Source: an uncultured Candidatus Saccharibacteria bacterium (GTDB lineage: Bacteria > Patescibacteriota > Minisyncoccia > RBG-13-40-8-A > JAUWHN01). Taken from it: a stretch of DNA of 35,655 nt. The position numbers were made by a program, and so were the translations under genes. Shown here one piece after another: positions 5,935 through 35,502 of this stretch. Position 1 is the stretch's first letter. The number at the start of each line of letters is the position of its first letter. A model generated the notes under the pieces. The model was not told the origin of the DNA. It ran no database searches and saw nothing but the letters and a program-made list of their open reading frames with translations. Where the stretch lies: NCBI GenBank assembly GCA_964426965.1, contig CAYRSI010000002.1, forward strand, positions 1 through 35,655, given 5' to 3'.

Positions 5935-6433
5935 TTGATTTCCTGCCTGCCGGCAGGCAGGTGTTTTTGGGCCTTTCATCTTCTTTTGACTTTCCTGTCT
6001 CATCTTTCCCCGGCTCTCCTATCTCCCGATAGATTGTTCCCAATACCCCATTAATAAACTTTCCAGAAGACTCACCGCCATAAGTTTTAGCTAACTCAAT
6101 TGCTTCATTAATGGCTACTTTTGGCGGCACTTCTTTACGGTCACCAAAGAGAAGTTCATAAAGTCCAATTCGTAAAACATTCCTGTCAACAATAGTAATT
6201 TGCTCTAATGGCCATTCTGGCGCTGCCTTTTCAATAATCTTATCAATTTTAGGCTGAAACTTCATTACGCTCTTAGCTAAACTATGAATAAAATCAACAT
6301 CCTCAGCATCCGGAGTTAATGCCTCGATGTTTCTTCCAATGACTTTCTTAAGCTCATCTGATTTCCTCTTTCTAAAATCCCATTCATAAAGGGATTGTAA
6401 TACAATTGAACGAGCTAAATGACGAGATGCCAT
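5918..6433 (-). CDS. nusB: Transcription antitermination factor NusB with a C-terminal tail that reads through a GC palindrome
   Basis: [20 protein letters not shown]...[15 protein letters not shown]...[26 protein letters not shown]. It overlaps the rnc start by 17 nt. Confidence 0.88.
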
Positions 6434-7996: not shown

Positions 7997-8419
7997 ATGG
8001 CAAAGCCAATTAAAACAATTATAAAATTGCAAATAAAAGCCGGTCAGGCCAACCCGGCGCCGCCGATTGGGCCGGCCTTGGGTCAGCATGGGTTGGATAT
8101 CCAACAATTCTGCGCTCAATTTAATGAAGCTACTAAAGATAAGGGTAGCGATATTATTCCTGTAGAAATTACAGTTTATGAAGACAGAACTTTTGATTTC
8201 CAATTAAAAACTCCGCCAGCTTCTGATTTACTTAAAAAAGCAGCTGGGATTGAAAAGGGTTCTGGCATACCCCACAAAGAAAAAGTGGGCAAAGTAACTA
8301 GGAAACAAATCCGCGAAATCGCTGAAAAGAAACTGGTGGATTTAAATGCCAATGACATAAAAGCAGCAATGAAAATTATAGAAGGCACTGCGAGAAATAT
8401 GGGGATCAAGATAGTGTAA
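7997..8419 (+). CDS. rplK: 50S ribosomal protein L11
   Basis: [32 protein letters not shown].... Confidence 0.96.
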
Positions 8420-11653: not shown

Positions 11654-11899
11654 ATGAATTTTGAGATACCGGAAAACAAAGAATTAAAAAAGAAAGAATT
11701 AGACGAGCAAATTGCAAAACTTGAAAAAGAAGTTCAAGATTTGGAGAAGGAAAAAAAGAAAGACGAAGAATCAAGAAAAAGAATAGCTGAAAGCTTAGAA
11801 AAAGATACTATTCCATGCAAGTATACTGATACAGGATTATCCGAAACAAAACAAAGATTAAATGAACTTAAACAAGAAAGAGAAAAACTCGAAGACTAG
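11654..11899 (+). CDS. Hypothetical K/E-rich coiled-coil protein (81 aa)
   Basis: ORF only. Its 3' end overlaps the convergent miaBA 3' end by 42 nt. Confidence 0.4.
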   Translation: MNFEIPENKELKKKELDEQIAKLEKEVQDLEKEKKKDEESRKRIAESLEKDTIPCKYTDTGLSETKQRLNELKQEREKLED

Positions 11900-13861
11900 T
11901 TTCTCGGCTTCTCGGTAATTACTTACCCAATGAATTCTTTTGTCACGCTTAAACCAAGTCATTTGGCGTTTTGCATAATGTTCAATTTCTTTTTGAAGTT
12001 TTTCAACCATTTCTTGTTTGGTTATTTTTCCTTGAAGATACTTAGCAATATAACGATACTCTAATCCAAAATCATCCAACCTTTTCCACGACAAGCCTCC
12101 GCCAGCTGGCGGATTTTTTAACTTTTTAACTTCAGCAATCATGCCTTTCTTAAGACGATGTAGCAATCGTTTTTTTATTAAGACTTTTAACTTTTGATTC
12201 GATTTTTTTATACCGACTATTAAAACATCCCGGCCTACGGCCTGCCTGCCGGCAGGACAGGATGGTCCGCCCGCTTCGCCGCGAGGCGAGCCGTAGACGG
12301 AAAATTGAAGAGGGGGCACTGGTTTGCCAGATTTAATAACTATCTCCAAGGCCCGGATTAAACGCCGCCTATTTTTGGAATCAATATTTTTAGCTCGACG
12401 GGGGTCGAGTTTTTTTAATTTTTTAAACAAAGCTTCGGTGGTTTCTTTTTCTAAATTTTTTCTTAGCCTTAAATCAGGTTTTACTCTTGGAATAATTAAT
12501 CCTTCAACAACTGCCTGAATATAAAATCCGGTTCCACCACAAAGAATTGGAACTTTTCCTTTTTTGTAAATTCTATTAATTGTCTGAAGTGCTTTTCTTT
12601 GATATTGAGCAACTGTAAATCTCCTCTTTGGATTAGCTGCATCTAAAAGATAATGCGGAATCCCCTGCATCTCTTTTTTAGTAATTTTGCCGGTCCCAAT
12701 ATCCATACCCTTATAAACCTGTCTCGAATCAGCAGAAATAATTTCTCCGTTAAACTTTTTAGCAAGCTTAACAGCTAAATCAGATTTTCCTGAAGCAGTT
12801 GGTCCCAAGACTACTATTAATTTCTCTTTCTTTTTAAGAATATCGTCTAATATCTTCCAACGGCGCTTCTTTTCATTCCATGATATACTATCTTTAAATT
12901 TAACAGCAGCTGTTCCCGACCTCGGAGAGTATTTATTAATATATGCTATATCATAATTAACTTGTTTAAATATCTTTACTGTGTTTTGAAATTGCTTTTT
13001 TGTTTCTCCTGGAAAACCAACAATAACGTCTGTAGATAACTTAACATTAGGAATCTTTTTTCTGATTTTATTAACCAAACTTAAATATTGTTTAACCGTA
13101 TATTTTCTGTTCATTTTCTTTAAAATCTCATCGTCCCCGCTTTGAATAGGCAAATGTATTTCCTTGACGACTTTTTCGCATTTGGCAATTGTATCAATTA
13201 ATTCATTAGACATATCCTTTGGGTGATTAGTTAAAAAATGAATTTTAAAATTGCCAGGAAGTTTATTAATTTTATTAAGCAAGTCAACAAAACCATATTC
13301 GCCCGCCTTACCGCAAGACAGGTAAGAATTAACATTTTGTCCTATTAGGGTTATTTTTTTATAACCATTTTTAATTAAGTTTTTTATTTCATCTATTATT
13401 TCTTGGACTGGCCTTGAAACTTCCCTTCCCCGAGTATAAGGAACTACGCAATAAGTACAAAAATTATCACAGCCAGTCATTATAGGAACAAAAGCTGAAA
13501 ATTTATTAATACATTTAGGTTTCAAAGATAGGTAATTTTTTCCCAGAAATTTTTCAATATCCAATACTTCGTCAAAAAACTTTCTGAACTTTATTCTATC
13601 AGACTTTAAAATACAGCCAGTTAATATTTTTTTAGCTTTCAGGCGAGCAAATTTTTGTTTCAGCCCGAAAATCCTATCTATTGCAGTTTGCCGAACCGAA
13701 CAAGCATTAACAACAATCAAATCAGCCTTCGCTAAAGCTTTGGCGGACGAGTCAGCCCCTTTTACGGGCTTATATCCTTTATTTTCCAAAACAGCTGCAA
13801 TCCGCTCACTATCAGAATAATTCATCTGACAACCAAAAGTTTTTATAAAATATGTTTTCAT
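11858..13861 (-). CDS. Fusion protein: radical-SAM methylthiotransferase MiaB (no TRAM domain) plus tRNA dimethylallyltransferase MiaA
   Basis: N-terminal half: MKTYFIKTFGCQMNYSDSE and CDNFCTYCVVPYTRGRE. C-terminal half: LIVVLGPTASGKSDLA...ISADSRQVYKGMDIGTGK...QRKALQ. It is one uninterrupted frame. Start chosen at 13861 (the track ORF begins at 13933, inside a terminator hairpin). Confidence 0.88.
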   Translation of the reverse strand: MKTYFIKTFGCQMNYSDSERIAAVLENKGYKPVKGADSSAKALAKADLIVVNACSVRQTAIDRIFGLKQKFARLKAKKILTGCILKSDRIKFRKFFDEVLDIEKFLGKNYLSLKPKCINKFSAFVPIMTGCDNFCTYCVVPYTRGREVSRPVQEIIDEIKNLIKNGYKKITLIGQNVNSYLSCGKAGEYGFVDLLNKINKLPGNFKIHFLTNHPKDMSNELIDTIAKCEKVVKEIHLPIQSGDDEILKKMNRKYTVKQYLSLVNKIRKKIPNVKLSTDVIVGFPGETKKQFQNTVKIFKQVNYDIAYINKYSPRSGTAAVKFKDSISWNEKKRRWKILDDILKKKEKLIVVLGPTASGKSDLAVKLAKKFNGEIISADSRQVYKGMDIGTGKITKKEMQGIPHYLLDAANPKRRFTVAQYQRKALQTINRIYKKGKVPILCGGTGFYIQAVVEGLIIPRVKPDLRLRKNLEKETTEALFKKLKKLDPRRAKNIDSKNRRRLIRALEIVIKSGKPVPPLQFSVYGSPRGEAGGPSCPAGRQAVGRDVLIVGIKKSNQKLKVLIKKRLLHRLKKGMIAEVKKLKNPPAGGGLSWKRLDDFGLEYRYIAKYLQGKITKQEMVEKLQKEIEHYAKRQMTWFKRDKRIHWVSNYREAEKLVFEFFSFLFKFI
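12231..12300. repeat. GC-rich composite palindromic element inside the miaA half
   Basis: CTACGGC-CTGCCTGCCGGCAGG...CGCCCGCTTCGCCGCGAGGCGAGCC-GTAG. It shares modules with 5942-5961 and 24178-24218. Confidence 0.85.
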
Positions 13862-13868
13862 AAAGAAT

Positions 13869-13897
13869 ATCATAACAGGTACTAAAAAGATTGACAA
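13869..13897 (-). promoter_or_regulatory. Putative promoter of miaBA, with the -10 only 7 nt from the ATG
   Basis: Minus strand reads TTGTCA, 17 nt, TATGAT, attcttt, ATG. Confidence 0.45.
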
Positions 13898-13916
13898 GAA
13901 TGCGCTTTGACTAAAA

Positions 13917-13948
13917 CAGCCCCGACGTAACATCGGGGCTGTTTTTTT
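13917..13948 (-). terminator. Rho-independent terminator hairpin (bidirectional in appearance) after the Kazal-domain gene
   Basis: CAGCCCCGA-cgtaaca-TCGGGGCTG, flanked by AAAA and TTTTTTT. Confidence 0.75.
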
Positions 13949-13976: not shown

Positions 13977-15239
13977 TTATTCTGCTTTTTTTAATCTTAA
14001 TTCAGGCCCAATGTTTTCTTTTGTCTCACATCTTCCTTTATGAGCGATTTCTACTCCGGCTAATTTAGCAAAACAGGCGTTGCTGTAAATTTTGCCATCT
14101 TTACCGCATACCGGATCCCAAGCCGCTATACAAGCCTGCTCTCGTACTTGCTCTTTTGCCTGTTCTTGGGTTTGTTCTTGGGCTCTCTCTTCAGCTTGCT
14201 CCTTTAGTTGAAGCATGTCTCTTTCTGTAACTTGGACCCTTTCTTGAACTCTTTCTGTGTTTTGTTCAATTTTCTGCCTTAAAGCGGGTGTTGGATTTTC
14301 TTGCTCTAGTTTTTCTAGAATCATTAAGTGCGTAGCTTGCTCTCCACCAATCTTATCTAAATAATCTTCAAACTTTTCTTGGTCCTCCAAAGACATCTGC
14401 TCAAGATTGTCATGAAGTCTTTTTAAGGCATTTCCCTGAGCCTGTTTAATTGCTTCTTTGGCTTGTTCAGGAACTTTTTCTTCAAGCTTCATCAAAACCT
14501 CAAGGTTCTTAAAATTCTTATACTTACTCCCTTCGATCTTTTCCATGTTTTTTTCTAATCGTTCTGGGATTTTATCTTTTTCTTCAAGGCGTTCTATTAC
14601 TTCACCAAAATGCTCTAAGGTTTTTTCTTTGGTGTTTTTAATTTGCTCTAATACTTCCGGCTTATCCGATAAATTCTTTTCTAAGCGGTCCATTGCTCTT
14701 TGATGCTTTATTGTTTTCTCAGTAAACTCATCAAGAAACTTGTCAATTTTTGGATTATCTGCTGCTTTTTCTTTAAATTTTTCAGCCTGTTTCTCAATTT
14801 TTTCAATGTCATTTTGGTATTTTTGTAAAGTTTTTTGGAAAACTTCTTCTTTTTCGGTTTTCTCTGCTAACTTCTTGGCTTCGATTAATTTCTCGTTGGC
14901 AAAGCGGAGTCGCAATTCAGCTTTTTGGACCTTATTAAAAGTAAAGGTGCTTCTTACTCCTCGCCAGAAATTCTTAATAAAATAAAATGGACTATCAGGT
15001 AAAAGCTTGGGCTCAGAAATCCCCAAATCTTCAGCAGTAATATCTTCATCAATAGTCACTTCTTCAATTTCTTCTTCGGTTGTATCTTCTGACTGATCAC
15101 CTTCCGGGCTTATAACAACCTCTCCTGTGTCAACATCTCCTGTATCATTTTCTTCAATATCTTGAGCCAAGCCATTAAAACCAATTACTAATCCAATAAC
15201 CACAAAAAGTGATATAAGAAATAATATTTTTGTTTTCAT
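13977..15239 (-). CDS. Secreted or anchored acidic coiled-coil protein with a C-terminal Kazal-like domain
   Basis: N-terminal signal/TM, then a D/E-rich stretch, a long K/E helix region and CIAAWDPVCGKDGKIYSNACFAKLAGVEIAHKGRC at the C-terminus. Confidence 0.8.
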   Translation of the reverse strand: MKTKILFLISLFVVIGLVIGFNGLAQDIEENDTGDVDTGEVVISPEGDQSEDTTEEEIEEVTIDEDITAEDLGISEPKLLPDSPFYFIKNFWRGVRSTFTFNKVQKAELRLRFANEKLIEAKKLAEKTEKEEVFQKTLQKYQNDIEKIEKQAEKFKEKAADNPKIDKFLDEFTEKTIKHQRAMDRLEKNLSDKPEVLEQIKNTKEKTLEHFGEVIERLEEKDKIPERLEKNMEKIEGSKYKNFKNLEVLMKLEEKVPEQAKEAIKQAQGNALKRLHDNLEQMSLEDQEKFEDYLDKIGGEQATHLMILEKLEQENPTPALRQKIEQNTERVQERVQVTERDMLQLKEQAEERAQEQTQEQAKEQVREQACIAAWDPVCGKDGKIYSNACFAKLAGVEIAHKGRCETKENIGPELRLKKAE

Positions 15240-20292: not shown

Positions 20293-24448
<4,156 letters not shown>

Positions 24449-24458
24449 TTCTTCCTCG

Positions 24459-24522
24459 CGAATTACGAATTTCATCGAATTACGAATATTCGTAATTCGT
24501 GTTTGATTCGTAATTCGTAGGA
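24459..24522. repeat. Cluster of four 12-mers (2x cgaattacgaat, 2x attcgtaattcg), including a perfect 24-bp palindrome, in the pheS-pheT spacer
   Basis: 12-mers at 24459-24470, 24476-24487, 24488-24499 and 24506-24517. Positions 24476-24499 are a perfect palindrome. Confidence 0.9.
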
Positions 24523-24525
24523 TAT

Positions 24526-25527
24526 TTAAAACTGTTTTAAAAACCTCAAATCCCCTTTATAAAATAATCTTATATCATCAATCCCATATTTCATCATGGC
24601 AATCCTATCAAGACCCATGCCAAAGGCAAAACCCTGCCAATTGGCTGGATTATAACCCACTGCTTTAAAAACATTAGGATGAACCATTCCGCATGGAATT
24701 ACTTCTATCCAGCCCCTTTGTTCGCAAGTGGAACACCCCCTACCCTTACAGACACTACAGCCCATCAATAAATCCAAACCTGGCTCCACAAATGGATAAT
24801 AGCTTGGCTGCCATCGCAATTTAACCTCTGAACCATAAAATCGTTTCATAAACTCCTCTAAAACACCCTTCAAATTAGCTAAAGAAATATCCTTGCCCAC
24901 CATTAAACCTTCCACCTGATGAAATGTAGCCTCATGAGAAGCATCAGTAGCCTCATGACGAAAACAACGGCCAGGCACAATAATCCGCAATGGCGGATTA
25001 TTTTTTTCCATATAACGCACCTGCATCGGACTAGTGTGAGTCTTTAACAATAAGTGCTTAGGCTTTGTTTTTAACCAAAACGTATCCCACAAATCTCTGG
25101 CTGGATGGTCTTCTGGAATATTCAAGGCATCGAAATTATAATATTCAGTTTCAATGTCTGGCCCCTCAACAACCTCGAATCCCATTGACTGAAAAATCTC
25201 TTCTGCTTGTCGCAAAACTTGAGTTATTGGATGAAGATGACCTTGAGGCAATTTAATGCCCGGGGCAGTAATGTCAATTTTTTCTTTCTCCCTCTTTTTT
25301 CTTACTTCTAATTTCTTGATTCTTGATTCTAATTCGCCTTTAAATCTATTTGCTTCCTGGCCAACTTTCTTTCTCTGGATTACAGGTAAGTCTCTCAAGG
25401 ATCGTAAAGTATCCGCCAATTCTCCTTTGCGGCCTAAATACTTTATACGAAACGCCTCCAGCTCATCTGGGTTTTTAACTTTTTCTATTTCTTCAAAAGC
25501 TTGTTTTCTTATTTGCTTTAATTCCAT
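24526..25527 (-). CDS. pheS: Phenylalanyl-tRNA synthetase alpha subunit
   Basis: ...HPITQV...FDALNIPEDHPARD...FRHEATDASH...CSVCKGRGCSTCEQRGWIEVIPCGMVHPNV...FAFGMGLDRIAM... Start at MELKQIRK (25527). Confidence 0.95.
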   Translation of the reverse strand: MELKQIRKQAFEEIEKVKNPDELEAFRIKYLGRKGELADTLRSLRDLPVIQRKKVGQEANRFKGELESRIKKLEVRKKREKEKIDITAPGIKLPQGHLHPITQVLRQAEEIFQSMGFEVVEGPDIETEYYNFDALNIPEDHPARDLWDTFWLKTKPKHLLLKTHTSPMQVRYMEKNNPPLRIIVPGRCFRHEATDASHEATFHQVEGLMVGKDISLANLKGVLEEFMKRFYGSEVKLRWQPSYYPFVEPGLDLLMGCSVCKGRGCSTCEQRGWIEVIPCGMVHPNVFKAVGYNPANWQGFAFGMGLDRIAMMKYGIDDIRLFYKGDLRFLKQF

Positions 25528-35380: not shown

Positions 35381-35502
35381 AATGAGGCATTTATTTTTGG
35401 GGAATAGACTTGACACAGTTTTTCTTTTAAGGGTTTTTCCGGGCTCTCTCCGACGCGCCTGCCCGTCCAAAGCTGAAAGCGAAGGAGGGTCTCGGTCGGG
35501 TC

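What the first reader, a model, noticed from the sequence alone, without database searches (positions are those of the whole stretch)
11858..13861. Single-polypeptide MiaB-MiaA fusion in which MiaA replaces the MiaB TRAM domain
One uninterrupted frame encodes a MiaB-type methylthiotransferase (FGCQMN N-domain, CDNFCTYC radical-SAM cluster). It stops being MiaB-like right after ...EKKRRWKILDDILKKKEK, which matches E. coli ...EEKKQRLYILQERINQQ, the point where the RNA-binding TRAM domain should begin. It continues directly into a full MiaA (GPTASGKS P-loop, DSRQVYKGMDIGTGK). MiaA makes i6A37 and MiaB converts it to ms2i6A37. The fusion therefore joins consecutive steps on the same nucleotide, and tRNA binding by MiaA could substitute for TRAM. 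I am not aware of this architecture being characterised.
Basis: partly seen in the sequence, partly recalled or inferred. Interest (0 to 1): 0.62.

Follow-up and report, generated by a model that had tools for sequence, protein, structure and literature searches.

The report
Fused MiaB-MiaA tRNA enzyme lacking TRAM
One real gene in this small-genome Patescibacteria bacterium joins the two enzymes that build the tRNA base ms2i6A37 into one protein that lacks MiaB's usual RNA-binding TRAM tail; the arrangement is common in this lineage, I found no paper describing it, and it is a variant of well-known enzymes.

Summary
Window 11858-13861 on the minus strand is one open frame of 667 aa. Residues 1-345 are a MiaB-type methylthiotransferase core (UPF0004 plus radical SAM, all six cluster cysteines). 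Residues 346-667 are a full-length MiaA. There is no TRAM domain, and only about two residues separate the last MiaB helix from the first MiaA strand.

Independent contigs from four runs and two samples cross the junction without any difference. More than 110 full-length homologues share the architecture. The genome has no other MiaB, MiaA or TRAM. It has eight UNN-reading tRNAs with A36-A37-A38.

A careful tree shows that in this lineage the fusion came first, because the sister clade is fused and still has TRAM. TRAM was then lost once. Two relatives later split again, leaving stand-alone TRAM-less MiaB cores. Across Patescibacteria, fusion/fission changed at least 13 times and TRAM presence at least 9 times.

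"MiaA sits where TRAM was" is therefore true. "MiaA functionally replaces TRAM" is untested and only partly supported. I found no paper on this architecture. It is a new variant of a known kind and of moderate interest.

The parts
11858..13861 (-). Whole miaB-miaA fusion ORF, 667 aa plus the TAA stop
   Evidence: junction confirmed in independent contigs
13574..13852 (-). MTTase N-terminal domain (UPF0004, aa 4-96) carrying auxiliary-cluster cysteines C11, C54 and C83
   Evidence: Pfam PF00919, E 3e-17. C54 and C83 are invariant. C11 is present in every homologue that is not N-terminally truncated.
12974..13489 (-). Radical SAM domain (aa 125-296) with C131-x3-C135-x2-C138
   Evidence: Pfam PF04055, E 3e-32. 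The three cysteines are invariant in 64 of 64 homologues. The fold matches MiaB structures 7mjv-7mjz.
12833..12880 (-). Last MiaB helix (aa 328-343, NEKKRRWKILDDILKK). In canonical MiaB this helix leads into TRAM.
   Evidence: AF2 predicts a helix at 328-343 with pLDDT about 90. Alignment to B. uniformis MiaB ends here.
12821..12832 (-). Fusion junction (aa 344-347, K-E-K-L). It leaves no room for a TRAM domain.
   Evidence: The MiaB profile ends at residue 344 and the MiaA profile starts at 348. AF2 goes from helix 328-343 to strand 346-352. Contigs from 2 samples cross it with no differences.
11861..12826 (-). Full-length MiaA half (aa 346-667), including the P-loop GPTASGKS (12782-12805) and the DSRQ motif
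   Evidence: TIGR00174 scores 246 bits against a cut-off of 149 and covers profile positions 1-284 of 288. Foldseek TM-scores (normalised to the target) to the MiaA-tRNA complexes are 0.85 for 3foz and 0.83 for 2zm5. G353, K359, D378 and Q381 are invariant.
12236..12301 (-). In-frame GC-rich repeat insertion within the MiaA half (aa 521-542, SPRGEAGGPSCPAGRQAVGRD). It is a disordered loop and is not at the junction.
   Evidence: It is absent from most homologues and has pLDDT below 50. Its modules are repeated elsewhere in the genome.
12099..12112 (-). 14-nt palindrome CCGCCAGCTGGCGG, which encodes a small extra PPAGG insertion in the MiaA half
   Evidence: There are 5 copies in the genome against 1e-4 expected. 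It appears as a 4-aa insertion relative to homologues.
13869..13897 (-). Promoter-like site (TTGTCA, 17 nt spacer, TG-TATGAT) ending 7 nt before the ATG. This suggests a leaderless or near-leaderless mRNA.
   Evidence: Consensus scan, 10 of 12 positions match. This is a pattern match only.
13913..13945 (.). 13-bp GC-rich hairpin between the upstream gene (13977-15239) and the fusion ORF. It is probably the upstream gene's terminator.

Best explanation
The ORF is a genuine gene for a bifunctional tRNA-A37 hypermodification enzyme.

Proposed activities:
- The C-terminal MiaA half transfers the dimethylallyl group of DMAPP to N6 of A37 in the eight tRNAs that read UNN codons, which carry A36-A37-A38.
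- The N-terminal MiaB core has two [4Fe-4S] clusters and two SAM-dependent steps. It then methylthiolates C2 of i6A37 to give ms2i6A37.

Proposed origin:
- The gene arose from an ancestral Patescibacteria miaB-miaA operon in which the miaB stop overlaps the miaA start.
- In the window's lineage the two genes fused first, with TRAM still present.
- The roughly 65-80 aa TRAM domain was then deleted once, leaving a junction of about two residues.

What is shown: the anatomy, the conservation of both catalytic halves, the presence of substrates, and the order of evolutionary events.

What is inferred: that both activities are retained. Also inferred is that RNA docking formerly helped by TRAM is now supplied by the MiaB core itself, by proximity to MiaA's anticodon-arm clamp, or by both. 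That proximity could be covalent here and possibly non-covalent in relatives that split again.
For: - One open frame with full MiaB-core and MiaA profiles.
- The junction is identical in contigs from 4 runs and 2 samples.
- More than 110 fused TRAM-less homologues at 55-78% identity come from JGI, ENA, NCBI and Logan.
- The two halves are equally conserved, with mean pairwise identity 63.5% and 60.8%. All six cluster cysteines, the P-loop and the DSxQ motif are invariant.
- This is the only MiaB/RimO-family gene and the only IPPT gene in a 92%-complete genome. There is no TRAM anywhere in it.
- Eight tRNAs (Cys, 2 Leu, Phe, 2 Ser, Trp, Tyr) carry A36-A37-A38.
- The AF2 model has mean pLDDT 83, and the last MiaB helix runs straight into MiaA strand 1.
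- The halves match solved MiaB and MiaA-tRNA structures.
- The careful IQ-TREE has three well-supported features:
  - An 18-row clade (98/99) splits into 3 fused/TRAM+ rows and 15 TRAM-less rows.
  - The TRAM-less clade has 100/100 support.
  - 2 split forms are nested inside that clade.
- Relatives have overlapping miaB stop and miaA start codons, for example ATGA.
- Anton et al. 2010 (PMC2952846) found that B. subtilis MiaB with the TRAM domain of YqeV (MtaB) swapped in still made ms2i6A. [quoted passage not shown]
Against: - There is no biochemical, transcript or proteomic evidence. No RNA run holds the sequence.
- The MiaB half falls just below the NCBIfam MiaB equivalog cut-off (346.9 against 355.3 bits), because TRAM is missing.
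- No DMAPP-producing enzyme was found in the genome. IspH, IDI-1 and IDI-2 are absent although UppS is present.
- Stand-alone TRAM-less cores exist in relatives. A covalent tether to MiaA is therefore not needed for the core gene to persist.
- TRAM loss is not significantly associated with fusion.
- TRAM-less proteins show no compensating gain of positive charge.
- The relative orientation of the two halves is uncertain, with pTM 0.64.
- MiaA and MiaB each need A37 in their own active site, so they cannot act on the same anticodon loop at the same moment. This last point is my own reasoning from the solved complexes, not a test made here.
Confidence: 0.7

Rival explanations
1. Neutral fusion with no functional coupling. 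In streamlined genomes with overlapping miaB and miaA genes, a single-base change fuses or splits them without consequence. TRAM is simply dispensable for these MiaB enzymes, and MiaA does not compensate for it. The two halves act independently and happen to be joined.
For: - Fusion/fission changed at least 13 times and TRAM presence at least 9 times among 51 representatives. The larger trees give 11-14 and 10-12 changes.
- Close sister pairs differ only in fused versus split state.
- TRAM-less cores persist after fission, even with an intervening gene on the opposite strand.
- The traits show no significant association.
- Linker length varies from about 5 to 20 aa.
Against: - In every Patescibacteria locus examined, TRAM-less MiaB sits next to miaA or is fused to it.
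- The fused TRAM-less state is stably kept across a 78-row clade and in 10 of 16 genomes of the window's order.
- No TRAM-less MiaB without a miaA neighbour was confirmed. Two candidate loci with no miaA hit, L019 and the Omnitrophota locus L049, were not examined further.
Confidence: 0.3
2. Assembly or frameshift artefact. The two genes are really separate and were joined by a sequencing or assembly error in the A-rich junction.
For: The junction is A-rich (CTTAAAAAGAAAGAGAAATTAATAG). Such sequence is prone to indel errors. Some relatives are split at the same point.
Against: - Contigs from 4 runs and 2 samples are identical across the junction.
- More than 110 independent fused homologues exist.
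- There is no start codon or stop in any suitable position.
- MiaA residues 346-352 continue the frame directly.
Confidence: 0.02
3. The MiaB-like half is catalytically dead or repurposed, for example as a scaffold or an Fe-S sensor. Only the MiaA activity would remain, as in the many relatives that keep MiaA alone.
For: - 13 of 25 same-class genomes gave only a MiaA-half match, so ms2 is dispensable in many relatives.
- TRAM is missing.
Against: - All six cluster cysteines and the radical-SAM motifs are invariant.
- The MiaB half is as conserved as the MiaA half, at 63.5% against 60.8%.
- The fold matches MiaB with confident pLDDT.
Confidence: 0.06
4. The methylthiotransferase half has a different substrate. 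It could be MtaB-like and make ms2t6A, or RimO-like and modify a protein, so the two halves would not act on the same nucleotide.
For: - The score is below the MiaB equivalog cut-off.
- TRAM, one of the three canonical domains, is missing.
Against: - The MiaB profile is the best-scoring subfamily at 347 bits. MtaB scores 265, archaeal-type MtaB 232 and RimO 213.
- The closest solved relative is MiaB at 38% identity.
- Constant linkage with miaA argues for an i6A substrate.
- Anton et al. [quoted passage not shown]
Confidence: 0.04

Closest known systems
MiaB, tRNA-i6A37 C2-methylthiotransferase (NCBIfam TIGR01574; Bacteroides uniformis MiaB, PDB 7mjv-7mjz)
   Same: It has the UPF0004 domain with three cysteines and the radical-SAM CxxxCxxC domain. 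It is 38% identical to B. uniformis MiaB and has the same fold over about 380 aligned columns. MiaB is the best-scoring MTTase subfamily.
   Different: The C-terminal TRAM domain, about 65-70 aa, is missing. The polypeptide continues into MiaA instead. The score is just under the equivalog cut-off.
MiaA, tRNA dimethylallyltransferase (TIGR00174; E. coli MiaA-tRNAPhe complexes, PDB 3foz and 2zm5)
   Same: The profile match is full length and above the cut-off. The P-loop and DSxQ motifs are present. The TM-score normalised to the target is 0.83-0.85 against the tRNA-bound structures.
   Different: It has no start codon of its own and is fused behind MiaB. It carries a 22-aa disordered insertion encoded by a GC-rich repeat, plus a 4-aa insertion.
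Fused MiaB(+TRAM)-MiaA proteins of Patescibacteria (for example P0023, P0031, and L085 from the window's own family)
   Same: They have the same domain order and the same lineage. They form the sister clade of the window's TRAM-less clade.
   Different: They keep a recognisable TRAM domain (PF01938) between the radical-SAM domain and MiaA.
Split TRAM-less miaB next to miaA in Patescibacteria (for example L006, L010, L012, L086, L090)
   Same: The MiaB core is truncated at the same helix, and miaA lies immediately downstream.
   Different: These encode two polypeptides. The stop and start codons overlap (ATGA), or a small gene on the opposite strand lies between the two genes.

Membership tests
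MiaB (canonical three-domain tRNA methylthiotransferase, TIGR01574) | N-terminal UPF0004 domain with three conserved cysteines for the auxiliary [4Fe-4S] cluster | tested here: met
   PF00919 at aa 4-96, E 3e-17. C11, C54 and C83 are conserved.
MiaB (canonical three-domain tRNA methylthiotransferase, TIGR01574) | Radical-SAM domain with the CxxxCxxC motif | tested here: met
   PF04055 at aa 125-296. C131, C135 and C138 are invariant in 64 of 64 sequences.
MiaB (canonical three-domain tRNA methylthiotransferase, TIGR01574) | C-terminal TRAM RNA-binding domain | tested here: not met
   There is no PF01938 or PF18693 hit at E<=1. Only 5 of the 64 alignment members hit TRAM, and 4 of the 6 long-linker members already hit it at E<=0.01, so at most one of the 58 short-linker members can. 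No beta-barrel appears in the model. The genome holds no TRAM at all.
MiaB (canonical three-domain tRNA methylthiotransferase, TIGR01574) | Score above the NCBIfam equivalog cut-off | tested here: not met
   It scores 346.9 bits against a cut-off of 355.3. It does pass the broader MiaB/RimO family model TIGR00089, at 359.5 against 251.
MiaB (canonical three-domain tRNA methylthiotransferase, TIGR01574) | Converts i6A37 to ms2i6A37 | not testable with these tools
   This needs complementation with LC-MS or in vitro reconstitution.
MiaA (tRNA dimethylallyltransferase, TIGR00174) | Full-length profile match above the equivalog cut-off, including the P-loop and the DSxQ substrate motif | tested here: met
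   It scores 246.4 bits against 148.65 and covers profile positions 1-284 of 288. G353, K359, D378 and Q381 are invariant.
MiaA (tRNA dimethylallyltransferase, TIGR00174) | MiaA fold with the helical insertion (clamp) domain | tested here: met
   Foldseek TM-score normalised to the target is 0.85 for 3foz_A and 0.83 for 2zm5_A, both tRNA complexes.
MiaA (tRNA dimethylallyltransferase, TIGR00174) | Substrate tRNAs with A36-A37-A38 are present in the genome | tested here: met
   Eight tRNAs carry the motif: Cys-GCA, Leu-TAA, Leu-CAA, Phe-GAA, Ser-GGA, Ser-CGA, Trp-CCA and Tyr-GTA.
MiaA (tRNA dimethylallyltransferase, TIGR00174) | The DMAPP donor is available in the cell | tested here: inconclusive
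   IspH, IDI-1 and IDI-2 were not found, while UppS is present. The genome is 92% complete.

The most novel reading that the evidence does not exclude
In this Patescibacteria clade, MiaA and the TRAM-less MiaB core may form an obligate two-step A37 module. The module would be covalent here and non-covalent where the genes split again. MiaA's anticodon-arm clamp would supply the RNA hold that TRAM gives in canonical MiaB. i6A37-tRNA would then pass from the MiaA site to the MiaB site without being released into solution.
Probability: 0.3. Interest if true: 0.55.

Novelty: new variant of a known kind. Interest (0 to 1): 0.4.

Why it matters
MiaA and MiaB are textbook consecutive enzymes, and no paper I found describes them as one protein. 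A natural fusion that is widespread in one bacterial radiation is Rosetta-stone evidence that the two can work as a unit.

The lineage also holds all four states: fused or split, each with or without TRAM. That is a ready-made natural experiment on what TRAM contributes to methylthiotransferases, whether a generic RNA clamp or specificity.

There is a practical consequence too. Of the homologues whose sources give a name, nearly all are labelled as only MiaA or only MiaB. Surveys of tRNA-modification capacity in CPR genomes can therefore miscount one of the two activities.

Tried and rejected
- **Charge compensation.** I asked whether TRAM-less proteins gain positive charge in the MiaB core or the MiaA half. 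Eleven sister comparisons went both ways, so there is no signal.
- **Association test.** I tested TRAM loss against fusion on phylogenetically independent pairs. Only 7 supported pairs were available and the result is not significant.
- **Transcript evidence.** No RNA run holds the sequence.
- **MiaB-tRNA structure paper.** The paper behind PDB 7mjv-7mjz (DOI 10.1038/s41586-021-03904-6) is not held in the library. Statements here about TRAM contacts rest on Anton et al. 2010 and on general knowledge.
- **Literature.** Searches for MiaB-MiaA or MiaA-MiaB, for MiaA/MiaB with fusion or Patescibacteria, for MiaB with TRAM or CPR, and for tRNA modification with Patescibacteria found no description of the fusion.
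- **Junction built from a repeat element.** Earlier scan notes raised this idea. Here the GC-rich repeats lie inside the MiaA half at aa 521-542 and 584-588, not at the junction.
- **Longer ORF from ATG 13933.** Rejected, because that start lies inside a hairpin and homologues begin at MK(Y)F.
- **Inter-domain geometry.** I could not analyse it, because model coordinates are not exposed and pTM is only 0.64.
Full report

The ORF listing finds one open frame on the minus strand, 11858-13933.

The upstream in-frame ATG at 13933 lies inside a 13-bp GC-rich hairpin (13913-13945). That hairpin follows the upstream gene. Homologues start at MK(Y)FIKTFGCQMN, so 13861 is the likely start. A promoter-like site, TTGTCA-17-TG-TATGAT, ends 7 nt before that ATG. 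This is a pattern match only.

Pfam gives UPF0004 at aa 4-96, Radical_SAM at 125-296 and IPPT at 381-640, with the IPT match starting at 348. There is no TRAM hit even at E<=1.

NCBIfam results:
- The MiaB equivalog TIGR01574 matches profile positions 1-368 of 437 and ends at residue 344.
- MiaA TIGR00174 matches positions 1-284 of 288 and begins at residue 348.
- The MiaB/RimO family model is passed (359.5 against 251 bits).
- The MiaB equivalog is narrowly missed (346.9 against 355.3), as expected when TRAM is absent.
- MiaB still beats MtaB (265), archaeal-type MtaB (232) and RimO (213).

**2. Is it an artefact?**

No. Logan contigs from four public runs of two marine-sediment samples cover the ORF. 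Two runs cover 11800-13553 in a single contig. Two low-depth runs from the other sample cover 12693-13438, which includes the junction. None shows a substitution, indel or joint.

Two caveats apply. These are assembler contigs, not raw reads. One of the samples may be the source of the MAG.

Independent support comes from a search of 5.8 billion proteins. Its top 120 hits are all full-length fused proteins at 55-71% BLAST identity, drawn from JGI, ENA, NCBI and Logan.

**3. Is there a cryptic TRAM?**

No.
- The distance from the radical-SAM motif to the MiaA P-loop is 210-250 aa in almost all homologues. It is 277-311 aa in seven longer ones.
- The longer proteins carry PF01938 (TRAM) between the radical-SAM domain and MiaA.
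- In a scan of 64 aligned members, TRAM was hit by 5. Four of the six long-linker members already hit it, so at most one of the 58 short-linker members can.
- The AlphaFold2 model has mean pLDDT 83.4 and pTM 0.64. It shows helix 328-343 followed directly by strand 346-352, which is the first strand of the MiaA P-loop fold. There is no beta-barrel anywhere.
- phmmer against PDB aligns the query only up to about residue 385-392 of the 457-aa B. uniformis MiaB.
- Foldseek matches MiaB (7mjv-7mjz, 38% identity) with the first half. It matches the MiaA-tRNA complexes (3foz, TM-score normalised to the target 0.85; 2zm5, 0.83) with the second half.

**4. Genome context**

The MAG has 929 kb in 120 contigs and is 92% complete. 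It has one MiaB/RimO-family gene and one IPPT gene, both of which are this ORF. It has no TRAM domain at all.

ARAGORN finds 45 tRNAs. The eight that read UNN codons all carry A36-A37-A38, the MiaA recognition motif. They are Cys, two Leu, Phe, two Ser, Trp and Tyr.

UppS is present. IspH, IDI-1 and IDI-2 were not found, so the source of DMAPP is unresolved.

The neighbouring genes show no functional link. They are:
- gatB;
- an 81-aa ORF that overlaps the 3' end of the fusion convergently;
- a DUF5667-Kazal protein;
- thrS.

**5. Are both halves likely to be active?**

In 64 aligned fused proteins the MiaB half and the MiaA half are equally conserved, with mean pairwise identity 63.5% and 60.8%.

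C54, C83, C131, C135 and C138 are invariant. So are G353, K359, D378 and Q381. C11 is missing only from N-terminally truncated gene calls.

**6. Evolution**

I examined GTDB-representative loci and genomes of the window's own family and order. All four states exist:
- **Split/TRAM+.** This is often found with the miaB stop overlapping the miaA start, for example ATGA in L008.
- **Fused/TRAM+.** Examples are P0023, P0031 and L018. L085, from the window's own family, has a clearly readable TRAM sequence.
- **Fused/TRAM-.** This includes the window.
- **Split/TRAM-.** L006 and L009-L012 have overlapping stop and start codons. In L086 and L090 a small hydrophobic ORF on the opposite strand is inserted between the core and miaA.

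One apparent split, G401, is only an assembly break. Its two contig ends overlap by 55 nt at the junction.

A careful IQ-TREE of 51 representatives used the MiaB core plus MiaA with linker columns excluded. It gives the following:
- An 18-row clade has support 98/99.
- Within it, three fused/TRAM+ rows (100/100) are sister to a 15-row TRAM-less clade (100/100).
- That TRAM-less clade contains the window.
- The two split/TRAM- genomes are nested inside it, next to fused proteins (95/82 and 100/100).

The order of events in this lineage is therefore: fusion, then one TRAM deletion, then two secondary fissions.

Across the sample, fusion/fission needs at least 13 changes and TRAM at least 9. The 152- and 159-row FastTrees give 11-14 and 10-12. 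The two traits are not significantly associated on independent pairs, though only 7 supported pairs were available.

In the window's order, 10 of 16 genomes are fused/TRAM-. One more is fused/TRAM+ and two are split/TRAM-. In two the gene is broken at contig ends, and one gave no match. Thirteen of 25 other same-class genomes gave only a MiaA-half match. MiaB is therefore often lost altogether.

One caveat applies. The junctions are A-rich, so some single-base fused/split differences between close MAGs could be sequencing errors.

**7. Mechanism**

Shown:
- the anatomy;
- the conservation of both catalytic halves;
- the presence of substrate tRNAs;
- the order of evolutionary events.

Inferred: the protein prenylates A37 through the MiaA half using DMAPP. 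It then methylthiolates C2 through the MiaB core, which has two Fe-S clusters and uses SAM as both radical initiator and methyl donor. These chemistries are established for the two families.

Anton et al. 2010 (PMC2952846) found that B. subtilis MiaB with the TRAM domain of YqeV (MtaB) swapped in still made ms2i6A. [quoted passage not shown] This makes it plausible that TRAM can be lost when another RNA-holding module is close by.

However, TRAM-less cores survive as separate genes. No compensating increase in charge is seen. Each enzyme needs A37 in its own pocket, so any help from MiaA would come through tethering or hand-off, not simultaneous binding. That last point is my own reasoning. 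The neutral alternative, that TRAM is dispensable and the fusion is incidental, remains a serious rival.

**8. Comparison and novelty**

The protein is a MiaB/RimO-family methylthiotransferase of MiaB type joined to a bona fide MiaA. It fails the canonical MiaB definition on one tested feature, TRAM.

No paper in the searchable library mentions a MiaB-MiaA fusion. Of the hits that carry a source name, nearly all are labelled as MiaA only or MiaB only; one JGI name lists both enzymes and one gives the family name.

Earlier notes of this scan record the same fusion in at least 30 other genomes. They are AI notes, not independent evidence. I re-tested their main claims here and agree with them.

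Verdict: real, common in this lineage, undescribed in the literature I could search, and a new variant of a known kind. Interest is moderate.

Noticed in passing
window 12229-12296, 12099-12112, 24181-24211, 5946-5957, 8045-8084, 35439-35468: Short islands of at least 77% GC, built from palindromic repeat modules, occur in a 35% GC genome. CCTGCCGGCAGG occurs 7 times genome-wide (0.003 expected) and CCGCCAGCTGGCGG 5 times (1e-4 expected). A 25-nt module has copies at about 95% identity on at least 6 other contigs. Two islands lie in frame in the MiaA half of the fusion. The peptide is GSPRGEAGGPSCPAGRQAVGRD, with pLDDT below 50, and most homologues lack it. One island lies in frame in pheT (22313-24556) and gives a similar peptide, [12 protein letters not shown]. 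They resemble the in-frame hairpin repeats that earlier scan notes describe in Patescibacteria. The islands at 8045-8084 and 35439-35468 were not examined further.
   Followed up: partly
whole genome G000: IspH, type-1 IDI and type-2 IDI were not detected, although UppS (C26:5458-6150) and MiaA both need isoprenoid diphosphates. The DMAPP/IPP source is unresolved. It could be scavenging, an unrecognised route, or the missing 8% of the genome.
   Followed up: partly
whole genome G000: No TRAM domain (PF01938) exists anywhere in the genome at E<=1. All 14 control genomes have one.
   Followed up: yes
L086 1418-1714 (-) and L090 1296-1541 (-): In two relatives nested inside the fused/TRAM- clade, a small hydrophobic ORF (98 aa and 81 aa) on the opposite strand sits exactly between the MiaB core and miaA. 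These look like independent insertions that split the fusion. I saw no obvious similarity between the two small ORFs by eye and did not align them.
   Followed up: partly
window 13977-15239 (-): The upstream gene encodes a 420-aa protein with an N-terminal hydrophobic segment, a DUF5667 domain, a long acidic coiled-coil-like region and a C-terminal Kazal-type protease-inhibitor domain.
   Followed up: partly
window 13869-13897 and ATG 13861 (-): The promoter-like -10 element (TG-TATGAT) ends only 7 nt before the start codon, with no room for a Shine-Dalgarno sequence. This suggests a leaderless or near-leaderless transcript.
   Followed up: no
window 11654-11899 (+): An 81-aa highly charged ORF with no Pfam match converges on the fusion ORF and overlaps its last 42 nt.
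   Followed up: no
window about 12815-12826 (-): Immediately after the junction, the +1 frame reads AAT TAA TAG TAG, three consecutive stops at the domain boundary. This could be a relic of the ancestral miaB stop region, or chance in AT-rich DNA.
   Followed up: no
The genome search, same-class genomes: 13 of 25 genomes from other families of the same class matched only the MiaA half. MiaB, and hence the ms2 step, appears to be lost often in this class while MiaA is kept.
   Followed up: partly
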